DNA of 64,000 bases, taken from positions 1 to 64,000 of the IMG/VR virus record IMGVR_UViG_3300029904_000005. The stretch is one strand, 5' to 3'. Origin of the DNA: a virus. A program made the position numbers and the translations under genes. The notes under the pieces were generated by a model. The model saw nothing but the letters and a program-made list of their open reading frames with translations, searched no databases and was not told where the DNA came from. This document shows positions 1,519-18,898 of the stretch, piece by piece (position 1 is the first letter of the stretch; every line of letters begins with the position of its first letter).

Positions 1519-1602
1519 GCAGAGGTGGCAGAATGGATAATGCACCAGTCTTCTAAACTGGCTTTCTAAAAGAAAATGAGGGTTCGAATCCCTCCCTCTG
1601 TA
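1519..1602 (+). tRNA. tRNA, type II (long variable arm). Anticodon loop CUUCUAA gives anticodon UCU by hand folding; isotype uncertain.
   Basis: Acceptor gcagagg/cctctgt. 3-bp D stem with a 10-nt D loop. Anticodon stem ccagt/actgg. Variable arm tttct-aaa-agaaa with a 5-bp stem. T arm gaggg-ttcgaat-ccctc. No CCA encoded. Confidence 0.7.
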
Positions 1603-1633
1603 CAATAATAAACCATTTAAATAAGAAAATACA

Positions 1634-4115: not shown

Positions 4116-5525
4116 ATGAGCAAAGTAAATCCGTCATTAAGGAAAACCTCAAAATTTGATGAGGAAAGATTGGCTGGTGGCTCTGGTGCATTAGCAGCAA
4201 AACAGAGCAATGTGGCTCTATTAAGGAGAGCAGTACTTGCTAACCTCCTTTGGGAGAATGTGGCATATATGGATGGAATAAGGGTTGCTGAGGAAATTCA
4301 GAGACTTGTACCTCTGTGCCCTGCTGAGGAGGTATACAATATAGCCCTTGAAGCAAGGACAATGCAGAAGCTGAGACATACTCCTTTGTTCCTTGCAGTG
4401 GAGATGTGCAAGTATCCTGAGCATAAGATGTTTGTACAGGACTTGCTGCCTCAGATAATCACAAGGGCAGACATGCTCACTGACTTCTTGGCTATCTATT
4501 GGAAGGATGGTAAAAAGCCTATTGCAAATCAAGCAAAGAAAGGCCTAGCACAGGCATTCCATAATTTCAATGAGTATAAACTTGCCAAATATGACAGAGA
4601 TGCAGCTATCAAACTGAGAGATGTCATGTTCTTATGCAGACCTAAGCCAAAGAATCAGTATGAGCAGGAGTTATTTAAAAAGGTAGCAGACAGGACTCTT
4701 GCTGTGCCTGAGACATGGGAAGTGATGCTGTCTACTGGAAAGGATAAGAAAGAGTCTTGGACTAAACTTATCACTGAAGGCAAGATTGGAGGACTGGCCA
4801 TGCTGAGAAACATAGCCAATATGAGAAAGGCAAATGTGGATAGGAGAGTGATTAATGAGGGTCTTAAGAAGTTAAAGTCCTCAATGCTCCTACCTTTGGA
4901 CTTCTTGAAGGCAAACAAGATGAATCCTGAGTTTAGAGGACAAATAGAGGATGCTATGCTAAGTAGTTATGCTAATCTACCTAAGTTAAAAGGTAAGACT
5001 TTGTTTATTGTAGATGTATCAGGCTCAATGAGGGCCCCAATGTCTACTAAGTCTGGATTCAATAGGCAAGATGCAGCATGTGCTATGGCTATGTTAGCTG
5101 CCAATCAGTGTGAGGACTATGAAATAGTCTGCACTGCTGGCAATGACTATGATAGGATTGGAGCACATGAGCATATCATGTATCCTCAAAGGGGATTTGG
5201 CATCTTCTCTCAGATAGAAGATACTAGAAACAGAATTGGATATGGAGGGATATTCACAAGACAGTGCCTTGAATGGTGTGAGAAGAAATTTAAAGGGCAG
5301 AACTTTGATAGAATCATTGTATTCTCAGACTCACAGGATTGTGATTATGACACAATGAAGACTCCTAAGCCTTTTGGTACCTACAACTACATTTGTGATG
5401 TGTCTGCACATACAAAGGGTGTCAACTACAATGGTGTATGGTCTGCTGAAATAAGTGGTTTCTCAGAGCATTTTATCACATTCATTGCAGCAATGGAGGG
5501 TATTCAGAACACCTTTGAGGAATAA
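4116..5525 (+). CDS. rsr: Ro60/Rsr-like protein: TROVE-like helical region plus a C-terminal vWA domain with a MIDAS motif
   Basis: ORF 4092..5525 trimmed to the ATG at 4116. vWA MIDAS motif FIVDVSGSM. N-terminal segments RHTPLFLAV and LAMLRNIANMRKA resemble conserved Ro60 TROVE motifs as I recall them (R.PTHLF.F and LLRNLGKMTA). Size about 470 aa. Confidence 0.6.
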   Translation: MSKVNPSLRKTSKFDEERLAGGSGALAAKQSNVALLRRAVLANLLWENVAYMDGIRVAEEIQRLVPLCPAEEVYNIALEARTMQKLRHTPLFLAVEMCKYPEHKMFVQDLLPQIITRADMLTDFLAIYWKDGKKPIANQAKKGLAQAFHNFNEYKLAKYDRDAAIKLRDVMFLCRPKPKNQYEQELFKKVADRTLAVPETWEVMLSTGKDKKESWTKLITEGKIGGLAMLRNIANMRKANVDRRVINEGLKKLKSSMLLPLDFLKANKMNPEFRGQIEDAMLSSYANLPKLKGKTLFIVDVSGSMRAPMSTKSGFNRQDAACAMAMLAANQCEDYEIVCTAGNDYDRIGAHEHIMYPQRGFGIFSQIEDTRNRIGYGGIFTRQCLEWCEKKFKGQNFDRIIVFSDSQDCDYDTMKTPKPFGTYNYICDVSAHTKGVNYNGVWSAEISGFSEHFITFIAAMEGIQNTFEE

Positions 5526-5540
5526 AAAAAATAAGAGTAC

Positions 5541-5567
5541 TGTGTAGTGTTTTGTCAGACTTACTTC
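5541..5567 (+). repeat. copy A of the ~28-nt motif (gtagtgt...agacttacttc)
   Basis: Lies directly 5' of tRNA-Lys. Its terminal ACTTC forms the start of the tRNA acceptor stem. Confidence 0.5.
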
Positions 5568-5635
5568 ATTAACTAAGTGGTTATAGTACAAAACTTTTAA
5601 TTTTGATGACACAGGTTCGAGTCCTGTATGAGATT
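5563..5635 (+). tRNA. tRNA-Lys (anticodon UUU)
   Basis: 73 nt. Acceptor acttcat/atgagat (one A-C mismatch, one G-U pair). D arm acta-agtggtta-tagt. Anticodon arm caaaa-cttttaa-ttttg. Variable loop atgac. T arm acagg-ttcgagt-cctgt. Confidence 0.8.
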
Positions 5636-5691
5636 GGGGAAACCCAAGTCTGGCATTTGTTCTCACAGTACTCTTTTTGAAATAAAATATT

Positions 5692-5821
5692 GAGGAGTTA
5701 GCTCAGTTGGTAGAGCACTTAATGTACTCTGTCAAAAGTTCCACAGTAAAGTGTTGATGACAGATAGAGTTACTTCGGTCTTTTAAATCAGTGGTCATAG
5801 GTTCGAGTCCTATACTCCTCA
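5692..5821 (+). ncRNA. tRNA-like RNA (130 nt) with a 58-nt insertion between the D arm and the anticodon arm; Lys-like anticodon loop CUUUUAA
   Basis: Perfect 7-bp acceptor pairing gaggagt/actcctc across 130 nt. Canonical D arm gctc-agttggta-gagc. Canonical T arm atagg-ttcgagt-cctat with discriminator A. The insert at 5717-5774 carries repeat copy B. The anticodon stem is weak. Confidence 0.55.
5744..5776 (+). repeat. copy B of the ~28-nt motif (inside the tRNA-like insert)
   Basis: Sequence cagtaaagtgttgatgacagatagagttacttc. Confidence 0.5.
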
Positions 5822-5827
5822 CTAAAT

Positions 5828-5855
5828 GCAGTATAGTGTATAATAGACTTACTTC
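5828..5855 (+). repeat. copy C of the ~28-nt motif (intergenic)
   Basis: Sequence gcagtatagtgtataatagacttacttc. Confidence 0.5.
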
Positions 5856-5939
5856 TGCCATAGTAAATATTGAAAATTTGTTTGGGTTATTGATTTTTTT
5901 TTTCAGTCTATTAGCTTTTCTTACTGCATTTTACAATAT

Positions 5940-6064
5940 GGGGATGTAGCTTAATGGTTATAGTACTCTAATCGTTTTTCTCTGGAAGCAGTAGTGTAGA
6001 TAAGAGTTACTTCAAGCATTTAATTCGTAATTAAAATATGAAAGTTCGATTCTTTCCATCCCCA
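5940..6064 (+). ncRNA. tRNA-like RNA (125 nt) with a 54-nt insertion between the D arm and the anticodon arm; anticodon loop UUCGUAA (CGU, Thr-like)
   Basis: Perfect acceptor ggggatg/catcccc. D arm gctt-aatggtta-tagt. Perfect anticodon arm tttaa-ttcgtaa-ttaaa at 6019-6035. T arm gaaag-ttcgatt-ctttc. The insert at 5965-6018 carries repeat copy D. Confidence 0.55.
5988..6013 (+). repeat. copy D of the ~28-nt motif (inside the tRNA-like insert)
   Basis: Sequence gcagtagtgtagataagagttacttc. Confidence 0.5.
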
Positions 6065-6076
6065 CTAGAATAGACT

Positions 6077-6097
6077 GGTGCATGTAATGGCTACTTC
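6077..6097 (+). repeat. copy E (degenerate) of the motif
   Basis: Sequence ggtgcatgtaatggctacttc. Weaker match to the other copies. Confidence 0.3.
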
Positions 6098-6157
6098 AAT
6101 TATTTTAACTGCATTTGTTTGACTTTTTACACAAGAACCATTACAGAAAGTTCCGTC

Positions 6158-6194
6158 TTAGGGCTACAGTAGAAATATTGTAGCCCTTTTTTGT
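6158..6194 (+). terminator. rho-independent terminator ending the RNA cluster
   Basis: gggctaca-loop-tgtagccc gives an 8-bp stem, followed by TTTTTTG. Confidence 0.65.
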
Positions 6195-6250
6195 TTGAAT
6201 ATATTCGAAACATATACAATATCTGATTTATTAATTTTCTAAAAAAAAAG

Positions 6251-6619
6251 ATGGAAAAGAAAAAGACTGCTCTTAACAGGGCACTGAAAGAACAGCATTT
6301 TGAAATTGCTGAAACAGCCATGAAAGGTGGTGAAGAATCTGGAAGCCTAGAATATCCTGAACTGGTCAGGGGACTTGTTGAAGGATATAAGGGCAAGACT
6401 GCCCATGCACCTATTGAGGTGATTATAACAAGTTCCATCTTCCTTAATGCAAAGGAGCTGATGGGTCTTATAGAGTCACTGAAGCACACTCTTAAAATCA
6501 AGATGGTAGAGGAGCTTAGAGAGAAAGCTGAGAAGGGTGAGGCAACCCCAACAGATGTAATGGCTGCACTGATGTTGGCAGACATGATGAAAACAACAGA
6601 ACACAAAGAGGATGAATAA
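6251..6619 (+). CDS. hypothetical protein (122 aa)
   Basis: Preferred over the overlapping antisense ORF 6127..6624, whose product is Ser/Leu-rich antisense-type sequence. Same strand as neighbouring genes. Confidence 0.7.
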   Translation: MEKKKTALNRALKEQHFEIAETAMKGGEESGSLEYPELVRGLVEGYKGKTAHAPIEVIITSSIFLNAKELMGLIESLKHTLKIKMVEELREKAEKGEATPTDVMAALMLADMMKTTEHKEDE

Positions 6620-17743: not shown

Positions 17744-18002
17744 GCTAATTATACCTGAAGAGGTTGAGAAAAAGATAAGATATATATGCCAGCAAATATG
17801 GAAAGATGAATGGTCTGGCACTCTCTTCTATAAACCAGAAGGGAGGTTTGAGGATGGTACTTTGGCTATCAGATGTGTGGATATTTATGTCATGGATATT
17901 GGAACTGCTGCCTATACAGAGTTTGATATGTCTCCTGATGTAATCAGCTATATGACTGATAATCCTGAGTTGCTTGACTGTCAGATGGGACTCATCCATT
18001 AA
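17679..18002 (+). CDS. hypothetical protein (107 aa)
   Basis: ORF track entry. Overlaps the upstream gene by 65 nt in another frame. Confidence 0.55.
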   Translation: MEKQNKETKKVIELVKKSDTFKLIIPEEVEKKIRYICQQIWKDEWSGTLFYKPEGRFEDGTLAIRCVDIYVMDIGTAAYTEFDMSPDVISYMTDNPELLDCQMGLIH

Positions 18003-18163
18003 GTGTGAGTGGATGTAAAACTGGGTGAATTGCTGGAAACTGGTAGATAAACCACAATCAGCAGCCAAGCATTAGGGTTAAAACCCTTTTGAAGGTTCAA
18101 CGACTAACACTTGAAACTGCTATTGCAGAATATAATAGTGACACGAGTGCCCAGCCCTATAGA

Positions 18164-18898
18164 TTATTTTATAGGTGATGATATAGTCTGAACTTGTTTA
18201 TATTTATCATAAGAGGAATGATTTATTCTTTGTAAGAATTTATCATGTTTCCTTTTATAATAAAAGGTTAAATTATTGTAACAATTAAAGAATTGCATAA
18301 CATCTTTTTTAGATGCAAATGCTAATCTTGGTATGGAATCATATTGTCTTATATGAGATTTATCTATAGATAGGTGGTCACATATTCCTTCAAGGAATTT
18401 CTGTGTACCTCTTATACTTATGTATAAAGAATAATCTTTACACAAGTATCCCCTATCATTAGTTCTTTCTCTATCTAAGACAGTTACACTTCCATCTCCA
18501 TCAAAGTATCCTATTATAAAAGCATTTCTATATTCCATAGGTATATTACATAATATATTATCCATAGATAAGCTTTTATTCTCAGTGATACCATATCTTC
18601 TTAAAGCATTTATTATAGGTCTTTTAGAAATTGTATATCTGATATGATGGATTTCCTTAGTTTTATCAAAGGAACTCTTTCTTCTAATTTCAAGCAATTT
18701 TCTATTAATATCTTGTAACTGATTCTTTATAAAATATAAAACAGCTCTGTCCTCATATTTAACCGTAATGGTTAAAGAAGTGGAAGAGGTTGATGTACCT
18801 TTCACTAAAGCACCATCTGCGGCTATAAACCCTAAGATATAGGCTTTTGAATAAGAATCAATTACATCAAAATAATGTACATTTACTGGGTATTTCAT
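18164..18898 (-). mobile_element. free-standing LAGLIDADG homing endonuclease (two LAGLIDADG motifs)
   Basis: Motifs ILGFIAADGAL and IIGYFDGDGSV. Only minus-strand gene in a + strand block. About 150 nt of non-coding DNA on both sides. Confidence 0.85.

What the first reader, a model, noticed from the sequence alone, without database searches (positions are those of the whole stretch)
5541..6097. Five copies of a ~28-nt motif (gcagtAGTGTA-ATAGAgTTACTTC) dispersed through the tRNA/tRNA-like cluster
Copies lie at 5541-5567 (abutting the tRNA-Lys 5' end), 5744-5776 (inside the first tRNA-like insert), 5828-5855 (intergenic), 5988-6013 (inside the second insert) and 6077-6097 (degenerate, intergenic). 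The motif ends in ACTTC. That matches the first five acceptor nucleotides of tRNA-Lys and sits just before the anticodon arms of the two tRNA-like genes. It does not match the host-type TAnnTTTG promoter. It could be a phage-specific promoter or processing signal, for example for a virion RNAP. It could be a protein-binding site such as a Ro-binding module. It could also be a small mobile repeat that has invaded tRNA genes.
Basis: seen in the sequence. Interest (0 to 1): 0.55.

Follow-up and report, generated by a model that had tools for sequence, protein, structure and literature searches.

The report
Phage Y RNA array beside Ro60
The repeated 28-nt motif is one strand of a conserved bulged RNA helix that marks five small non-coding "Y RNAs", several fused to tRNA-shaped domains in unusual ways, encoded directly after the Ro60 RNA-binding protein gene of a crAss001-like gut phage, so it is most likely the docking site for that protein and not a promoter or mobile repeat.

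Summary
The five copies are real and non-random. Each is the 5' strand of one RNA scaffold: basal stem, bulged U, R-G paired to C-Y of the partner strand (UAGUG/GUUCU), 9-bp variable helix, UACUUC. Both helices covary strongly: 93.5% paired vs 71% shuffled, 0/500 shuffles reach the score; A-U/G-C swap in 132 of 135 modules. The array (5533-6158) starts 8 nt after a Ro60/TROVE gene and ends at a terminator.

The same scaffold sits beside Ro60 genes, always on the Ro60 strand, in lineages with Ro60 only about 30-69% identical: Caulobacter phage CcrColossus, Xanthomonas and Rhizobium phages, Devosia, Acidobacteriota, Bacteroidales. There it encloses canonical YrlA tRNA-like domains that Rfam RF02553 recognises weakly. 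In some of those lineages the UAGUG slot reads GCCGAA or UGCGAA, matching the published Ro60-binding motif GNCGAA.

So these are Y RNAs of the YrlA/YrlB kind. I found no description of them for crAss-like phages.

What is new is the topology. One unit wraps a whole tRNA-Lys. Two are tRNA-shaped RNAs with open acceptor ends and the module inserted in the anticodon stem or D-loop. Two are plain hairpins. Their canonical anticodon loops swap triplets between close relatives. Ro60 binding itself is inferred, not shown.

The parts
4116..5525 (+). Ro60 (TROVE + vWA) gene, the presumed protein partner. ATG at 4116 gives the 469-aa product found identically in public data.
   Evidence: Pfam TROVE 5e-14 plus vWA_Ro60. 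PHROG 850 RNA-binding protein 3e-33. 100% identical 469-aa protein P0001. 78% identical to crAss001 gp96 TROVE protein.
5533..5675 (+). Unit A: open Y-type stem enclosing a complete tRNA-Lys(UUU). Basal stem 5533-5544/5664-5675. J1 UAGUGUUU 5545-5552. Inner helix 5553-5561/5647-5655. UACUUC 5562-5567. tRNA-Lys 5563-5635. GGGGAAACCC hairpin 5636-5645. J2 UUUGUUCU 5656-5663.
   Evidence: I1, I10; MFE z -4.1.
5692..5821 (+). Unit B: tRNA-shaped RNA with open acceptor ends (acceptor 5692-5698/5814-5820, D arm 5701-5716, T arm 5797-5813). A closed copy of the module (5720-5776) is inserted between nt 28 and 29 of an anticodon stem. Without the insert the stem reads CU+GGU/AUCAG with loop CUUUUAA (5780-5786). 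Module: inner helix 5726-5734/5762-5770, J2 AAAGUUC 5735-5741, distal stem CAC/GUG 5742-5744/5751-5753, J1 UUGAUGAC 5754-5761, UACUUC 5771-5776.
5824..5931 (+). Unit C: free-standing open hairpin (YrlB-like, no tRNA domain). Basal stem 5824-5833/5922-5931. J1 UAGUGUA 5834-5840. Inner helix 5841-5849/5905-5913. UACUUC 5850-5855. J2 GCUUUUCU 5914-5921.
   Evidence: (I9, I12).
5940..6064 (+). Unit D: tRNA-shaped RNA with open acceptor ends and the closed module inserted in the D-loop. Acceptor 5940-5946/6057-6063. D stem GCUU 5949-5952/AAGC 6014-6017. Module 5965-6013: inner helix 5965-5973/5999-6007, J2 GUUUUUCU 5974-5981, distal stem CUG/CAG 5982-5984/5989-5991, J1 UAGUGUA 5992-5998, UACUUC 6008-6013. 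Anticodon arm 6019-6035 (loop UUCGUAA, CGU). T arm 6040-6056.
   Evidence: Rfam tRNA 34 bits over 5990-6064; RNAalifold.
6072..6158 (+). Unit E: divergent open hairpin, last in the array. Basal stem AGAC/GUCU 6072-6075/6155-6158. J1 UGGUGCA 6076-6082. Inner helix 6083-6091/6137-6145. UACUUC 6092-6097. J2 GAAAGUUCC 6146-6154. It carries the G-C form (UGGUG/GUUCC) of the bulged helix.
   Evidence: homologous last-in-array family in L002-L004, L005, L017, L049.
6160..6197 (+). Intrinsic terminator closing the Ro60 + Y RNA transcription unit.
   Evidence: 12-bp stem, 5 GC pairs, followed by a T-rich tail (TTTTTGTTTG).

Best explanation
The motif is the 5' strand of the protein-docking scaffold of Y RNAs, the small non-coding RNAs that partner Ro60.

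The scaffold reads: basal stem, one bulged U, two pairs formed with the end of the partner strand (R-Y and G-C, i.e. UAGUG with GUUCU, or UGGUG with GUUCC), a short mismatched zone, a 9-bp helix of free but complementary sequence, then the invariant UACUUC.

The window encodes five such RNAs in a row, co-transcribed with the phage Ro60 gene as one early unit that ends at the terminator at 6160.

Inferred mechanism: phage Ro60 binds the conserved bulged helix of each RNA. The variable 'payload' of each RNA (a whole tRNA-Lys, a tRNA-shaped body, or a plain loop) then recruits or mimics something else. In bacterial YrlA, by comparison, the tRNA-like domain is the effector module and the Y RNA tethers Ro60 to an exoribonuclease.

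Shown here: the structure, its covariation, its exclusive same-strand linkage to Ro60 genes across distant lineages, and its positional equivalence to the published Ro60-binding motif.

Inferred only: actual binding, processing of the units, and the downstream effector.
For: (1) The Ro60/TROVE+vWA gene ends 8 nt before the array.

(2) Every copy pairs with a partner strand to give the same stem / bulged-helix / stem architecture.

(3) Covariation. Among 97 unique modules from 52 crAss001-like genomes there are 23 different inner helices. A module's own strands form 8.18 of 9 pairs, against 5.74 of 9 for swapped partners, and there are 21 different basal-stem 6-mers. On alignment A4, 93.5% of cells are paired vs 71% in shuffles, with covariation score 0.655 vs 0.206. 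No shuffle of 500 reaches it, and register slides give 0.12 or less. RNAalifold independently recovers the helices with compensatory changes.

(4) Base 2 of J1 pairs with the last base of J2: A-U 79, G-C 53, G-U 2, unpaired 1, of 135 unique modules. The bulged U is present in 131 of 135. The next pair also covaries in outgroups: UGCCG/..GC, UGUCG/..AC, UGAUG/..UC.

(5) Linkage to Ro60. The strict descriptor finds copies next to Ro60 genes of only 41-69% identity in dozens of loci. All are on the Ro60 strand and none on the opposite strand in 138 loci. Controls gave 3 hits in 1.44 Mb.

(6) In CcrColossus, Xanthomonas phage Olaya, Rhizobium phage RHph_Y65 and Devosia the scaffold encloses T arm, closed acceptor hairpin and D arm, which is the published YrlA layout. 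Rfam YrlA RF02553 hits copies in the three phages with E from 1.6e-8 to 7e-3.

(7) The J1 slot reads UUGCGAA, UGCCGAA, UGGCGUA, UGGUGAA and UAGUGUA/UAGUGAA along the series. That places it at the published Ro60-binding motif GNCGAA(N)G. The UAC corresponds to the published conserved YUAY / UA kink (PMC4201824 section 6; bioRxiv 10.1101/312249).

(8) The crAss001 TROVE gene is an early gene described as a possible RNP component (PMC8375218). A Thermus phage Ro60 binds phage-encoded Y-like RNAs in vitro (PMC12135203).
Against: No binding, expression or end-mapping data exist for these RNAs.

The crAss-type J1 (AGUGUA) matches the experimentally supported GNCGAA at only 3 of 5 specified positions, and 4 of 5 in the UAGUGAA variants.

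Rfam YrlA gives no hit in the window even at E<=10, and its hits on the canonical relatives are all below the gathering score.

Infernal's own alignment of RF02553 to Olaya places the model's first stem on our inner helix, so the element-by-element homology to Salmonella YrlA is not settled.

None of the five window units has the canonical YrlA order (V, T, closed acceptor, D).

Unit A could simply be a tRNA gene flanked by a processing stem.
Confidence: 0.75

Rival explanations
1. The scaffold is an RNA processing signal (an RNase III-type or phage endoribonuclease site). It would cut the polycistronic Ro60-tRNA transcript into units, independent of Ro60.
For: The stem / bulged helix / stem layout resembles phage RNase III sites (general knowledge). 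Unit A flanks a complete tRNA-Lys, and relatives enclose tRNA-Arg or tRNA-Gln in the same way. The units are packed head to tail in one transcription unit.
Against: Two copies lie inside tRNA-shaped bodies, where cutting would split the RNA. Free-standing hairpins enclose nothing to release (unit C). The scaffold follows Ro60 genes in lineages with different neighbouring genes and no shared neighbour other than Ro60. Invariant single-stranded UACUUC and a sequence-specific bulged helix are more typical of protein recognition than of RNase III substrates.
Confidence: 0.1
2. In units B and D the module is an intervening sequence that is removed, with or without religation, to yield functional tRNA-Lys and tRNA-Thr. 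The motif would mark excision boundaries.
For: Removing the insert restores a perfect 5-bp anticodon stem in unit B and in L025, or a D stem in unit D and L002. Anticodon loops are canonical: U33 in 41/42, R37 in 42/42. Bacterial Ro60/Y RNA genes are linked to the RtcB ligase operon (PMC7790460).
Against: No bacterial or phage splicing system is known for such inserts, and I saw no bulge-helix-bulge geometry at the boundaries. The identical scaffold occurs as stand-alone RNAs and in canonical YrlA, where it is the permanent Ro60-binding stem. The insertion point varies between D-loop, anticodon stem and anticodon loop within one gene family. No ligase or endonuclease was identified next to the array.
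Confidence: 0.08
3. The motif is a small mobile repeat (MITE-like) that has invaded tRNA genes.
For: Copies occur at different positions of tRNA bodies and between genes. Copy number varies from 3 to 6 among relatives.
Against: Copies within one genome share only the invariant J1, J2 and UACUUC elements, while their stems differ and compensate. There are no target-site duplications. Copies are confined to the Ro60 locus, on one strand only, and absent from the other 63 kb of the window. The scaffold is conserved across phyla together with Ro60.
Confidence: 0.03
4. The motif is a DNA promoter for the phage (virion) RNA polymerase.
For: It is repeated upstream of several small genes in an early region (PMC8375218 places the TROVE operon among early genes).
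Against: Compensatory changes with a partner strand show selection at the RNA level. Two copies are internal to tRNA-shaped genes. The same element is found in bacterial chromosomes (Devosia L230, with Chryseobacterium variants in L226), which lack the crAss polymerase.
Confidence: 0.02

Closest known systems
YrlA (Y RNA-like A; Rfam RF02553; Chen et al. 2014, PMC4201824)
   Same: Encoded within a few hundred bases of Ro60 on the same strand. A basal stem carries a conserved 5'-strand motif at the junction with a second ('AC') stem. A conserved YUAY/UA follows that stem. It has a tRNA-like domain with canonical T and D arms. Relatives of this locus in CcrColossus, Xanthomonas and Rhizobium phages are hit by RF02553.
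   Different: In the window the junction motif is UAGUG(U/A)A, not GNCGAA. The 3' strand (GUUCY) is also conserved and pairs with it, whereas the literature states that only the 5' strand is conserved. No window unit has the permuted order V-T-closed acceptor-D. Units B and D keep the native tRNA order with open acceptor ends and an extra anticodon arm, and the Ro60 module is closed by a loop and inserted in the anticodon stem or D-loop. RF02553 gives no hit in the window.
YrlB (short Salmonella Y RNA without tRNA-like domain)
   Same: Units C and E are plain stem / bulged helix / stem hairpins with the Ro60-type junction motif and no tRNA-like domain, encoded beside tRNA-like Y RNAs in the same operon.
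   Different: Units C and E keep the UACUUC element and the 9-bp second helix typical of the YrlA scaffold.
Metazoan and Deinococcus Y RNAs (Ro60-binding bulged helix)
   Same: A conserved helix with a bulged nucleotide formed by the 5' and 3' strands, recognised mainly through the 5' strand, as described in PMC4201824 and PMC12135203.
   Different: Different sequence (GGUCCGA vs UAGUG), and no tRNA-like domain in the metazoan RNAs. The resemblance of the bulged helix is architectural and was not tested structurally here.
Thermus phage phiLo Yrl1/Yrl2 (PMC12135203)
   Same: Phage-encoded Ro60 with adjacent phage-encoded Y-like RNAs, shown there to bind the phage Ro60 and host PNPase.
   Different: phiLo Ro60 is only 23.5% identical. 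Its RNAs carry a CGAA motif (GGCGAAG seen in L315), number two, and are not tRNA chimeras.

Membership tests
YrlA / bacterial Y RNA (Chen 2014; Rfam RF02553) | Encoded within about 4 kb of a Ro60 (TROVE) gene, on the same strand | tested here: met
   The array starts 8 nt after the Ro60 stop codon, on the same strand. The same holds in all relatives, with 0 opposite-strand hits.
YrlA / bacterial Y RNA (Chen 2014; Rfam RF02553) | Stem formed by the 5' and 3' parts of the RNA, carrying the Ro60-binding motif GNCGAA(N)G on the 5' strand | tested here: inconclusive
   The stem is present and covaries. The motif slot reads UAGUGUA or UAGUGAA in the window, which is 3-4 of 5 specified positions. Intermediates UGGUGAA, UGGCGUA, UGCCGAA and UUGCGAA in related Ro60 loci connect it to GNCGAA.
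YrlA / bacterial Y RNA (Chen 2014; Rfam RF02553) | Conserved YUAY / UA kink after the second (AC) stem | tested here: met
   UUAC of UUACUUC is invariant directly after the 9-bp helix: U 97, A 96, C 97 of 97. It matches the description in PMC4201824 and 10.1101/312249.
YrlA / bacterial Y RNA (Chen 2014; Rfam RF02553) | tRNA-like effector domain in the permuted order V loop, T arm, closed acceptor stem-loop, D arm | tested here: not met
   Units B and D have the native tRNA order with open acceptor ends. Unit A holds a whole tRNA. Units C and E have no tRNA domain. Distant relatives (L230, L312, L313) do have the canonical order.
YrlA / bacterial Y RNA (Chen 2014; Rfam RF02553) | Match to the Rfam covariance model at or above the gathering score (69 bits) | tested here: not met
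   No RF02553 hit in 5300-6400 even at E<=10. Canonical relatives score 30-50 bits, all below the gathering score.
YrlA / bacterial Y RNA (Chen 2014; Rfam RF02553) | Physical association with Ro60, and modification by tRNA enzymes (TruB, DusA) | not testable with these tools
   Needs RIP/EMSA and modification mapping.
Ordinary tRNA genes | Cloverleaf of 70-90 nt recognised by tRNA finders, with a contiguous D arm and anticodon arm | tested here: not met
   Only unit A's internal tRNA-Lys qualifies. Units B and D are 130 and 125 nt with 49-57-nt inserts. ARAGORN misses them and Rfam tRNA gives only a partial 34-bit match for D.
Mobile repeat (MITE/REP-like) | Near-identical copies dispersed at many loci, often on both strands | tested here: not met
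   Copies are confined to 5533-6158 on one strand. The stems differ and compensate.

The most novel reading that the evidence does not exclude
crAss001-like phages (and Flavobacteriales such as Chryseobacterium) make genuine tRNA / Y RNA chimeras. These would be tRNAs with open, processable acceptor ends and canonical but rapidly switching anticodon loops, carrying a Ro60-binding handle grafted into the D-loop or anticodon stem or wrapped around the acceptor stem. Ro60 would then be tethered to specific tRNA species. It could protect, repair, deliver or degrade them, or the chimeras could serve as anticodon-specific decoys against host tRNA-cleaving defences. The triplet swaps between sister phages would reflect an arms race.
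Probability: 0.15. Interest if true: 0.85.

Novelty: new variant of a known kind. Interest (0 to 1): 0.6.

Why it matters
crAss-like phages are among the most abundant viruses of the human gut. Their TROVE/Ro60 gene is an early gene of unknown role.

This analysis assigns the unannotated 600-900 nt that follow the gene, empty in the crAss001 RefSeq record, to an array of Y RNAs. That gives the protein its likely RNA partners.

It also extends the Y RNA scaffold definition. The 3' strand (GUUCY) and a covarying bulged helix are conserved across phages and several bacterial phyla. This explains why existing models miss these RNAs and gives a simple descriptor for finding them.

The chimeric topologies show that the Ro60 module can be grafted onto a tRNA body in at least three ways other than the canonical YrlA permutation. 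That makes the question 'what does the tRNA-like domain do?' directly testable with natural variants.

If the anticodon switching is functional, it would link Ro60 RNPs to tRNA-centred phage-host conflict.

Tried and rejected
1. The viral-collection scan with TAGTG-N(9-12)-TTACTTCAA was too loose.

2. Ungapped partner search was too noisy because of bulges. It was replaced by anchor-rule extraction.

3. RNAalifold on the plain MAFFT alignment of open hairpins recovered only 6 inner pairs, because the variable payload breaks the register.

4. The structure-first detector without sequence anchors has about 1 false hit per 10 kb. It was used only to read J1 and J2 without bias.

5. I searched for the published Salmonella YrlA core in E. 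coli genomes and plasmids to obtain a full canonical sequence, with no match. The supplement of Chen 2014 and two reviews are not held.

6. A covariance model from distant short hairpins was not built, because MAFFT mis-registers the 3' halves.

7. The regex hit AGTGGTTCTATGGGTAGTCTTACTTC inside the Ro60 ORFs of relatives is the coding sequence of the vWA MIDAS motif, not a module.

8. Pfam and PHROG searches of neighbouring ORFs found no RNA ligase, nuclease or other RNA-repair gene beside the array.
Full report
OBSERVATION. It matches nowhere in 100 dinucleotide-preserving shuffles of the window. Copies 2 and 5 are divergent but belong to the same family (see below). ARAGORN and Rfam confirm tRNA-Lys(UUU) at 5563-5635, beginning with ACUUC.

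CONTEXT. The ORF ending at 5525 is a Ro60 orthologue: Pfam TROVE 5e-14 with the Ro60 vWA domain and the PHROG 'RNA-binding protein' family at 3e-33. The 469-aa product starting at 4116 is in public data with 100% identity. The window is a crAss001-like phage (Kehishuvirus): Ro60 is 78% identical to crAss001 gp96. In the crAss001 RefSeq record the roughly 900 nt after gp96 carry no annotation at all. The array ends at a strong intrinsic terminator at 6160-6187. So Ro60 and the array look like one transcription unit. In crAss001 the TROVE gene belongs to the early class (PMC8375218, PMC10136315).

ANATOMY. Inverted-repeat search and folding show that each copy pairs with a partner strand.

The common scaffold is:
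- basal stem;
- J1 (UAGUG plus 2-3 nt);
- a 9-bp helix;
- UACUUC;
- on the other strand, the complement of the 9-bp helix, then J2 (about 8 nt ending GUUCU), then the complement of the basal stem.

Three topologies occur in the window:
- Units A (5533-5675), C (5824-5931) and E (6072-6158) are 'open'. The two strands flank a payload: a complete tRNA-Lys plus a small hairpin in A, and non-tRNA loops in C and E.
- Units B (5692-5821) and D (5940-6064) are tRNA-shaped RNAs with normal acceptor, D and T arms. In them the same scaffold is 'closed' by a 4-6-nt loop and inserted into the body.
- In B the insert lies between positions 28 and 29 of an anticodon stem. The stem is CU+GGU/AUCAG with loop CUUUUAA.
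- In D the insert lies in the D-loop. The D stem is GCUU/AAGC, followed by a complete anticodon arm UUUAA-UUCGUAA-UUAAA.

The J1 equivalent there is UGAUG, paired with ..UC of J2.

IS THE STRUCTURE REAL? I fetched 51 related loci by Ro60 similarity. I extracted modules by a fixed anchor rule with no hand alignment.
- This gave 230 modules, 97 of them unique, with 23 distinct inner helices and 21 distinct basal-stem 6-mers.
- A module's own strands form 8.18 of 9 inner pairs, against 5.74 of 9 for strands swapped between modules.
- The invariant elements are UAGUG (U 95, A 84, G 97, U 97, G 97 of 97), UUC in J2 (97 of 97) and UACUUC.
- On a MAFFT alignment of 22 contiguous closed modules, 93.5% of cells pair, against 71% in shuffles. 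The covariation score is 0.655 against 0.206, and none of 500 shuffles reaches it. Sliding the register by 1-3 columns gives 0.12 or less.
- RNAalifold independently predicts the acceptor stem, T arm, anticodon arm and both module helices, with 17 of 30 pairs showing compensatory changes.

The 'internal loop' is really a bulged helix. After a bulged U (131 of 135), base 2 of J1 pairs with the last base of J2: A-U 79, G-C 53, G-U 2, unpaired 1. The next pair is G-C in this phage group. In outgroups it becomes C-G, U-A or A-U, each with the matching J2 ending.

LINK TO Ro60 BEYOND THIS PHAGE GROUP. A sensitive search found a large family of Ro60-like proteins at 36-61% identity. A profile of 34 of them retrieved 80 loci from bacterial and archaeal genome assemblies and 80 from viral contigs.

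The strict descriptor, defined on crAss-type copies, fired next to Ro60 in dozens of loci whose Ro60 is only 41-69% identical. These include contigs assigned to Moraxella, Cytophagales, Acidobacteriota (seven copies in L209), Hyphomicrobiaceae and Chloroflexota, and the isolate genome of Devosia enhydra.
- Every hit is on the Ro60 strand.
- There is no hit on the opposite strand in 138 loci.
- Unrelated control sequence gave 3 hits in 1.44 Mb.

In these lineages the consensus is UGGUG ... UACUUC ... GUUCC.

WHAT IT IS. In Devosia, Caulobacter phage CcrColossus, Xanthomonas phage Olaya and Rhizobium phage RHph_Y65 the scaffold encloses a T arm, a closed acceptor-like hairpin and a D arm, in that order. 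That is the YrlA architecture of Chen et al. 2014, who listed CcrColossus among phages with YrlA (PMC4201824; PMC12135203).

Rfam's YrlA model RF02553 hits copies in the three phages with E from 1.6e-8 to 7e-3, although all are below its gathering score.

The published features map onto ours as follows:
- The conserved YUAY / UA kink after the 'AC stem' corresponds to the UAC of UACUUC (PMC4201824 section 6; 10.1101/312249).
- The Ro60-binding motif GNCGAA(N)G at the junction of basal stem and loop corresponds to the J1 slot. That slot reads UUGCGAA (Rhizobium phage), UGCCGAA (Bacteroidales contigs with Ro60 64% identical to ours), UGGCGUA (CcrColossus), UGGUGAA or UGGUGUA (Xanthomonas phage and many others) and UAGUGAA or UAGUGUA (crAss001-like).

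A detector that used only the UAC(U/A)UC tail and the two helices, not J1 or J2, still found J1 dominated by U(A/G)G(U/C)G and J2 by UUC(U/C) on the Ro60 strand.

The motif is therefore the Ro60-docking scaffold of Y RNAs. Binding itself is inferred.

One caveat: Infernal aligns RF02553's first stem to our inner helix. The exact element-by-element homology with Salmonella YrlA is therefore not settled. I could not obtain a full canonical sequence for comparison.

WHAT IS UNUSUAL. None of the five window units has the canonical YrlA order.
- Units B and D are the tRNA in its native order, with open acceptor ends and the Ro60 module closed and grafted in.
- This closed, inserted form also occurs in a bacterial chromosome, immediately upstream of the Ro60 of Chryseobacterium sp. 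JK1 (L226 2769-2896), next to a plain hairpin. So it is probably the usual form in Bacteroidota, and not a phage oddity.
- A Y stem wrapped around an entire tRNA recurs as well: tRNA-Lys or tRNA-Arg(UCU) in the window's group, and tRNA-Gln in L280 and L287.
- The anticodon-type loops of these chimeras are canonical: U33 in 41 of 42, purine 37 in 42 of 42, pyrimidine 32 in 39 of 42. None of these positions was used to select the loops.
- Yet the loops carry 16 different triplets, and the triplets switch between close relatives on identical stems. Examples are GAU, GGU, CAU and AUU on UUCAU/AUGAA, and UUU versus UCU in the unit A type. I have no tested explanation for this.

RIVALS.
- A DNA promoter is excluded by RNA-level covariation and by occurrence in bacterial chromosomes.
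- A mobile repeat is contradicted by the pattern of conservation: only the functional invariants are shared, the stems differ and compensate, and copies sit on one strand at one locus.
- A pure processing signal, or an excised intervening sequence, cannot be excluded without end mapping. However, neither explains the exclusive linkage to Ro60, the free-standing hairpins, or the identity of the scaffold with the permanent stem of canonical YrlA.

NOVELTY. Y RNAs next to phage Ro60 genes are known. They have been reported for 22 phages (PMC4201824) and for Thermus phage phiLo (PMC12135203). Full-text searches found no paper that links crAss-like phages or Bacteroides to Y RNAs or YrlA.

The crAss001-like array is therefore a new member of the family. 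It brings new topological variants and an extended, covarying definition of the docking helix. I rate it as a new variant of a known kind, with interest 0.6.

Noticed in passing
window 5780-5786, 6024-6030, 5595-5601; relatives L030, L034, L049, L254-L257, L266, L296 and others: The anticodon-type loops of the tRNA-shaped Y RNA units keep canonical features (U33 41/42, R37 42/42) but carry 16 different triplets. The triplets switch between close relatives on identical stems, for example GAU/GGU/CAU/AUU on UUCAU/AUGAA and UUU vs UCU in the unit A type.
   Followed up: partly
L226 2769-2976 (Chryseobacterium sp. JK1 chromosome); also L229, L235, L236, L244, L253: Flavobacteriales Ro60 genes are preceded by a 128-nt tRNA-shaped RNA with a closed module inserted in the anticodon stem, plus a plain hairpin (J1 UGUGA, J2 ..UUUUAA, UACUUC kept). 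So the closed, inserted topology is not phage-specific.
   Followed up: partly
L312 2700-3900 (CcrColossus), L313 2230-2850 (Xanthomonas phage Olaya), L314 2640-3770 (Rhizobium phage RHph_Y65): Cultured phages carry arrays of about 5-8 YrlA-type units upstream of Ro60 that are unannotated in the records. CcrColossus annotates a 'tRNA-Gln' (L312 3119-3186) that lies inside one such unit.
   Followed up: partly
L001 2262-2577, L006 1477-1780, L014 1512-1828, L035, L049, L273, L277, L280, L287: Many crAss001-like relatives encode a tmRNA (ARAGORN) 1-2.5 kb upstream of Ro60, usually next to a tRNA-Arg. No tmRNA is called in the window itself.
   Followed up: no
window 17950-18209: Group I catalytic intron (Rfam RF00028, 66.4 bits, E 1e-14). 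The host gene was not examined.
   Followed up: no
window 1519-1603: tRNA-Arg(UCU) of 85 nt with a long extra arm, unusual for tRNA-Arg. It is unrelated to the motif.
   Followed up: no
window 5990-6064; L030 4823-4896, L031 3074-3147, L045 4859-4932, L280 4749-4823: tRNA finders repeatedly call a 'tRNA' that starts inside the module, using J1 plus the inner helix as acceptor and D arm. This may hint that the scaffold's 5' strand derives from a tRNA 5' half, or may be an artefact. In the window call the acceptor pairs are poor (3 of 7 non-standard).
   Followed up: no
L006-L053, about 500 nt before the Ro60 stop (e.g. L008 3916-3941): A regex match to the motif inside Ro60 coding sequences of relatives is the codon string for the vWA MIDAS motif (V-S-G-S-M-G-S-L-T-S). 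It is a false positive, and it is absent from the window's Ro60.
   Followed up: yes
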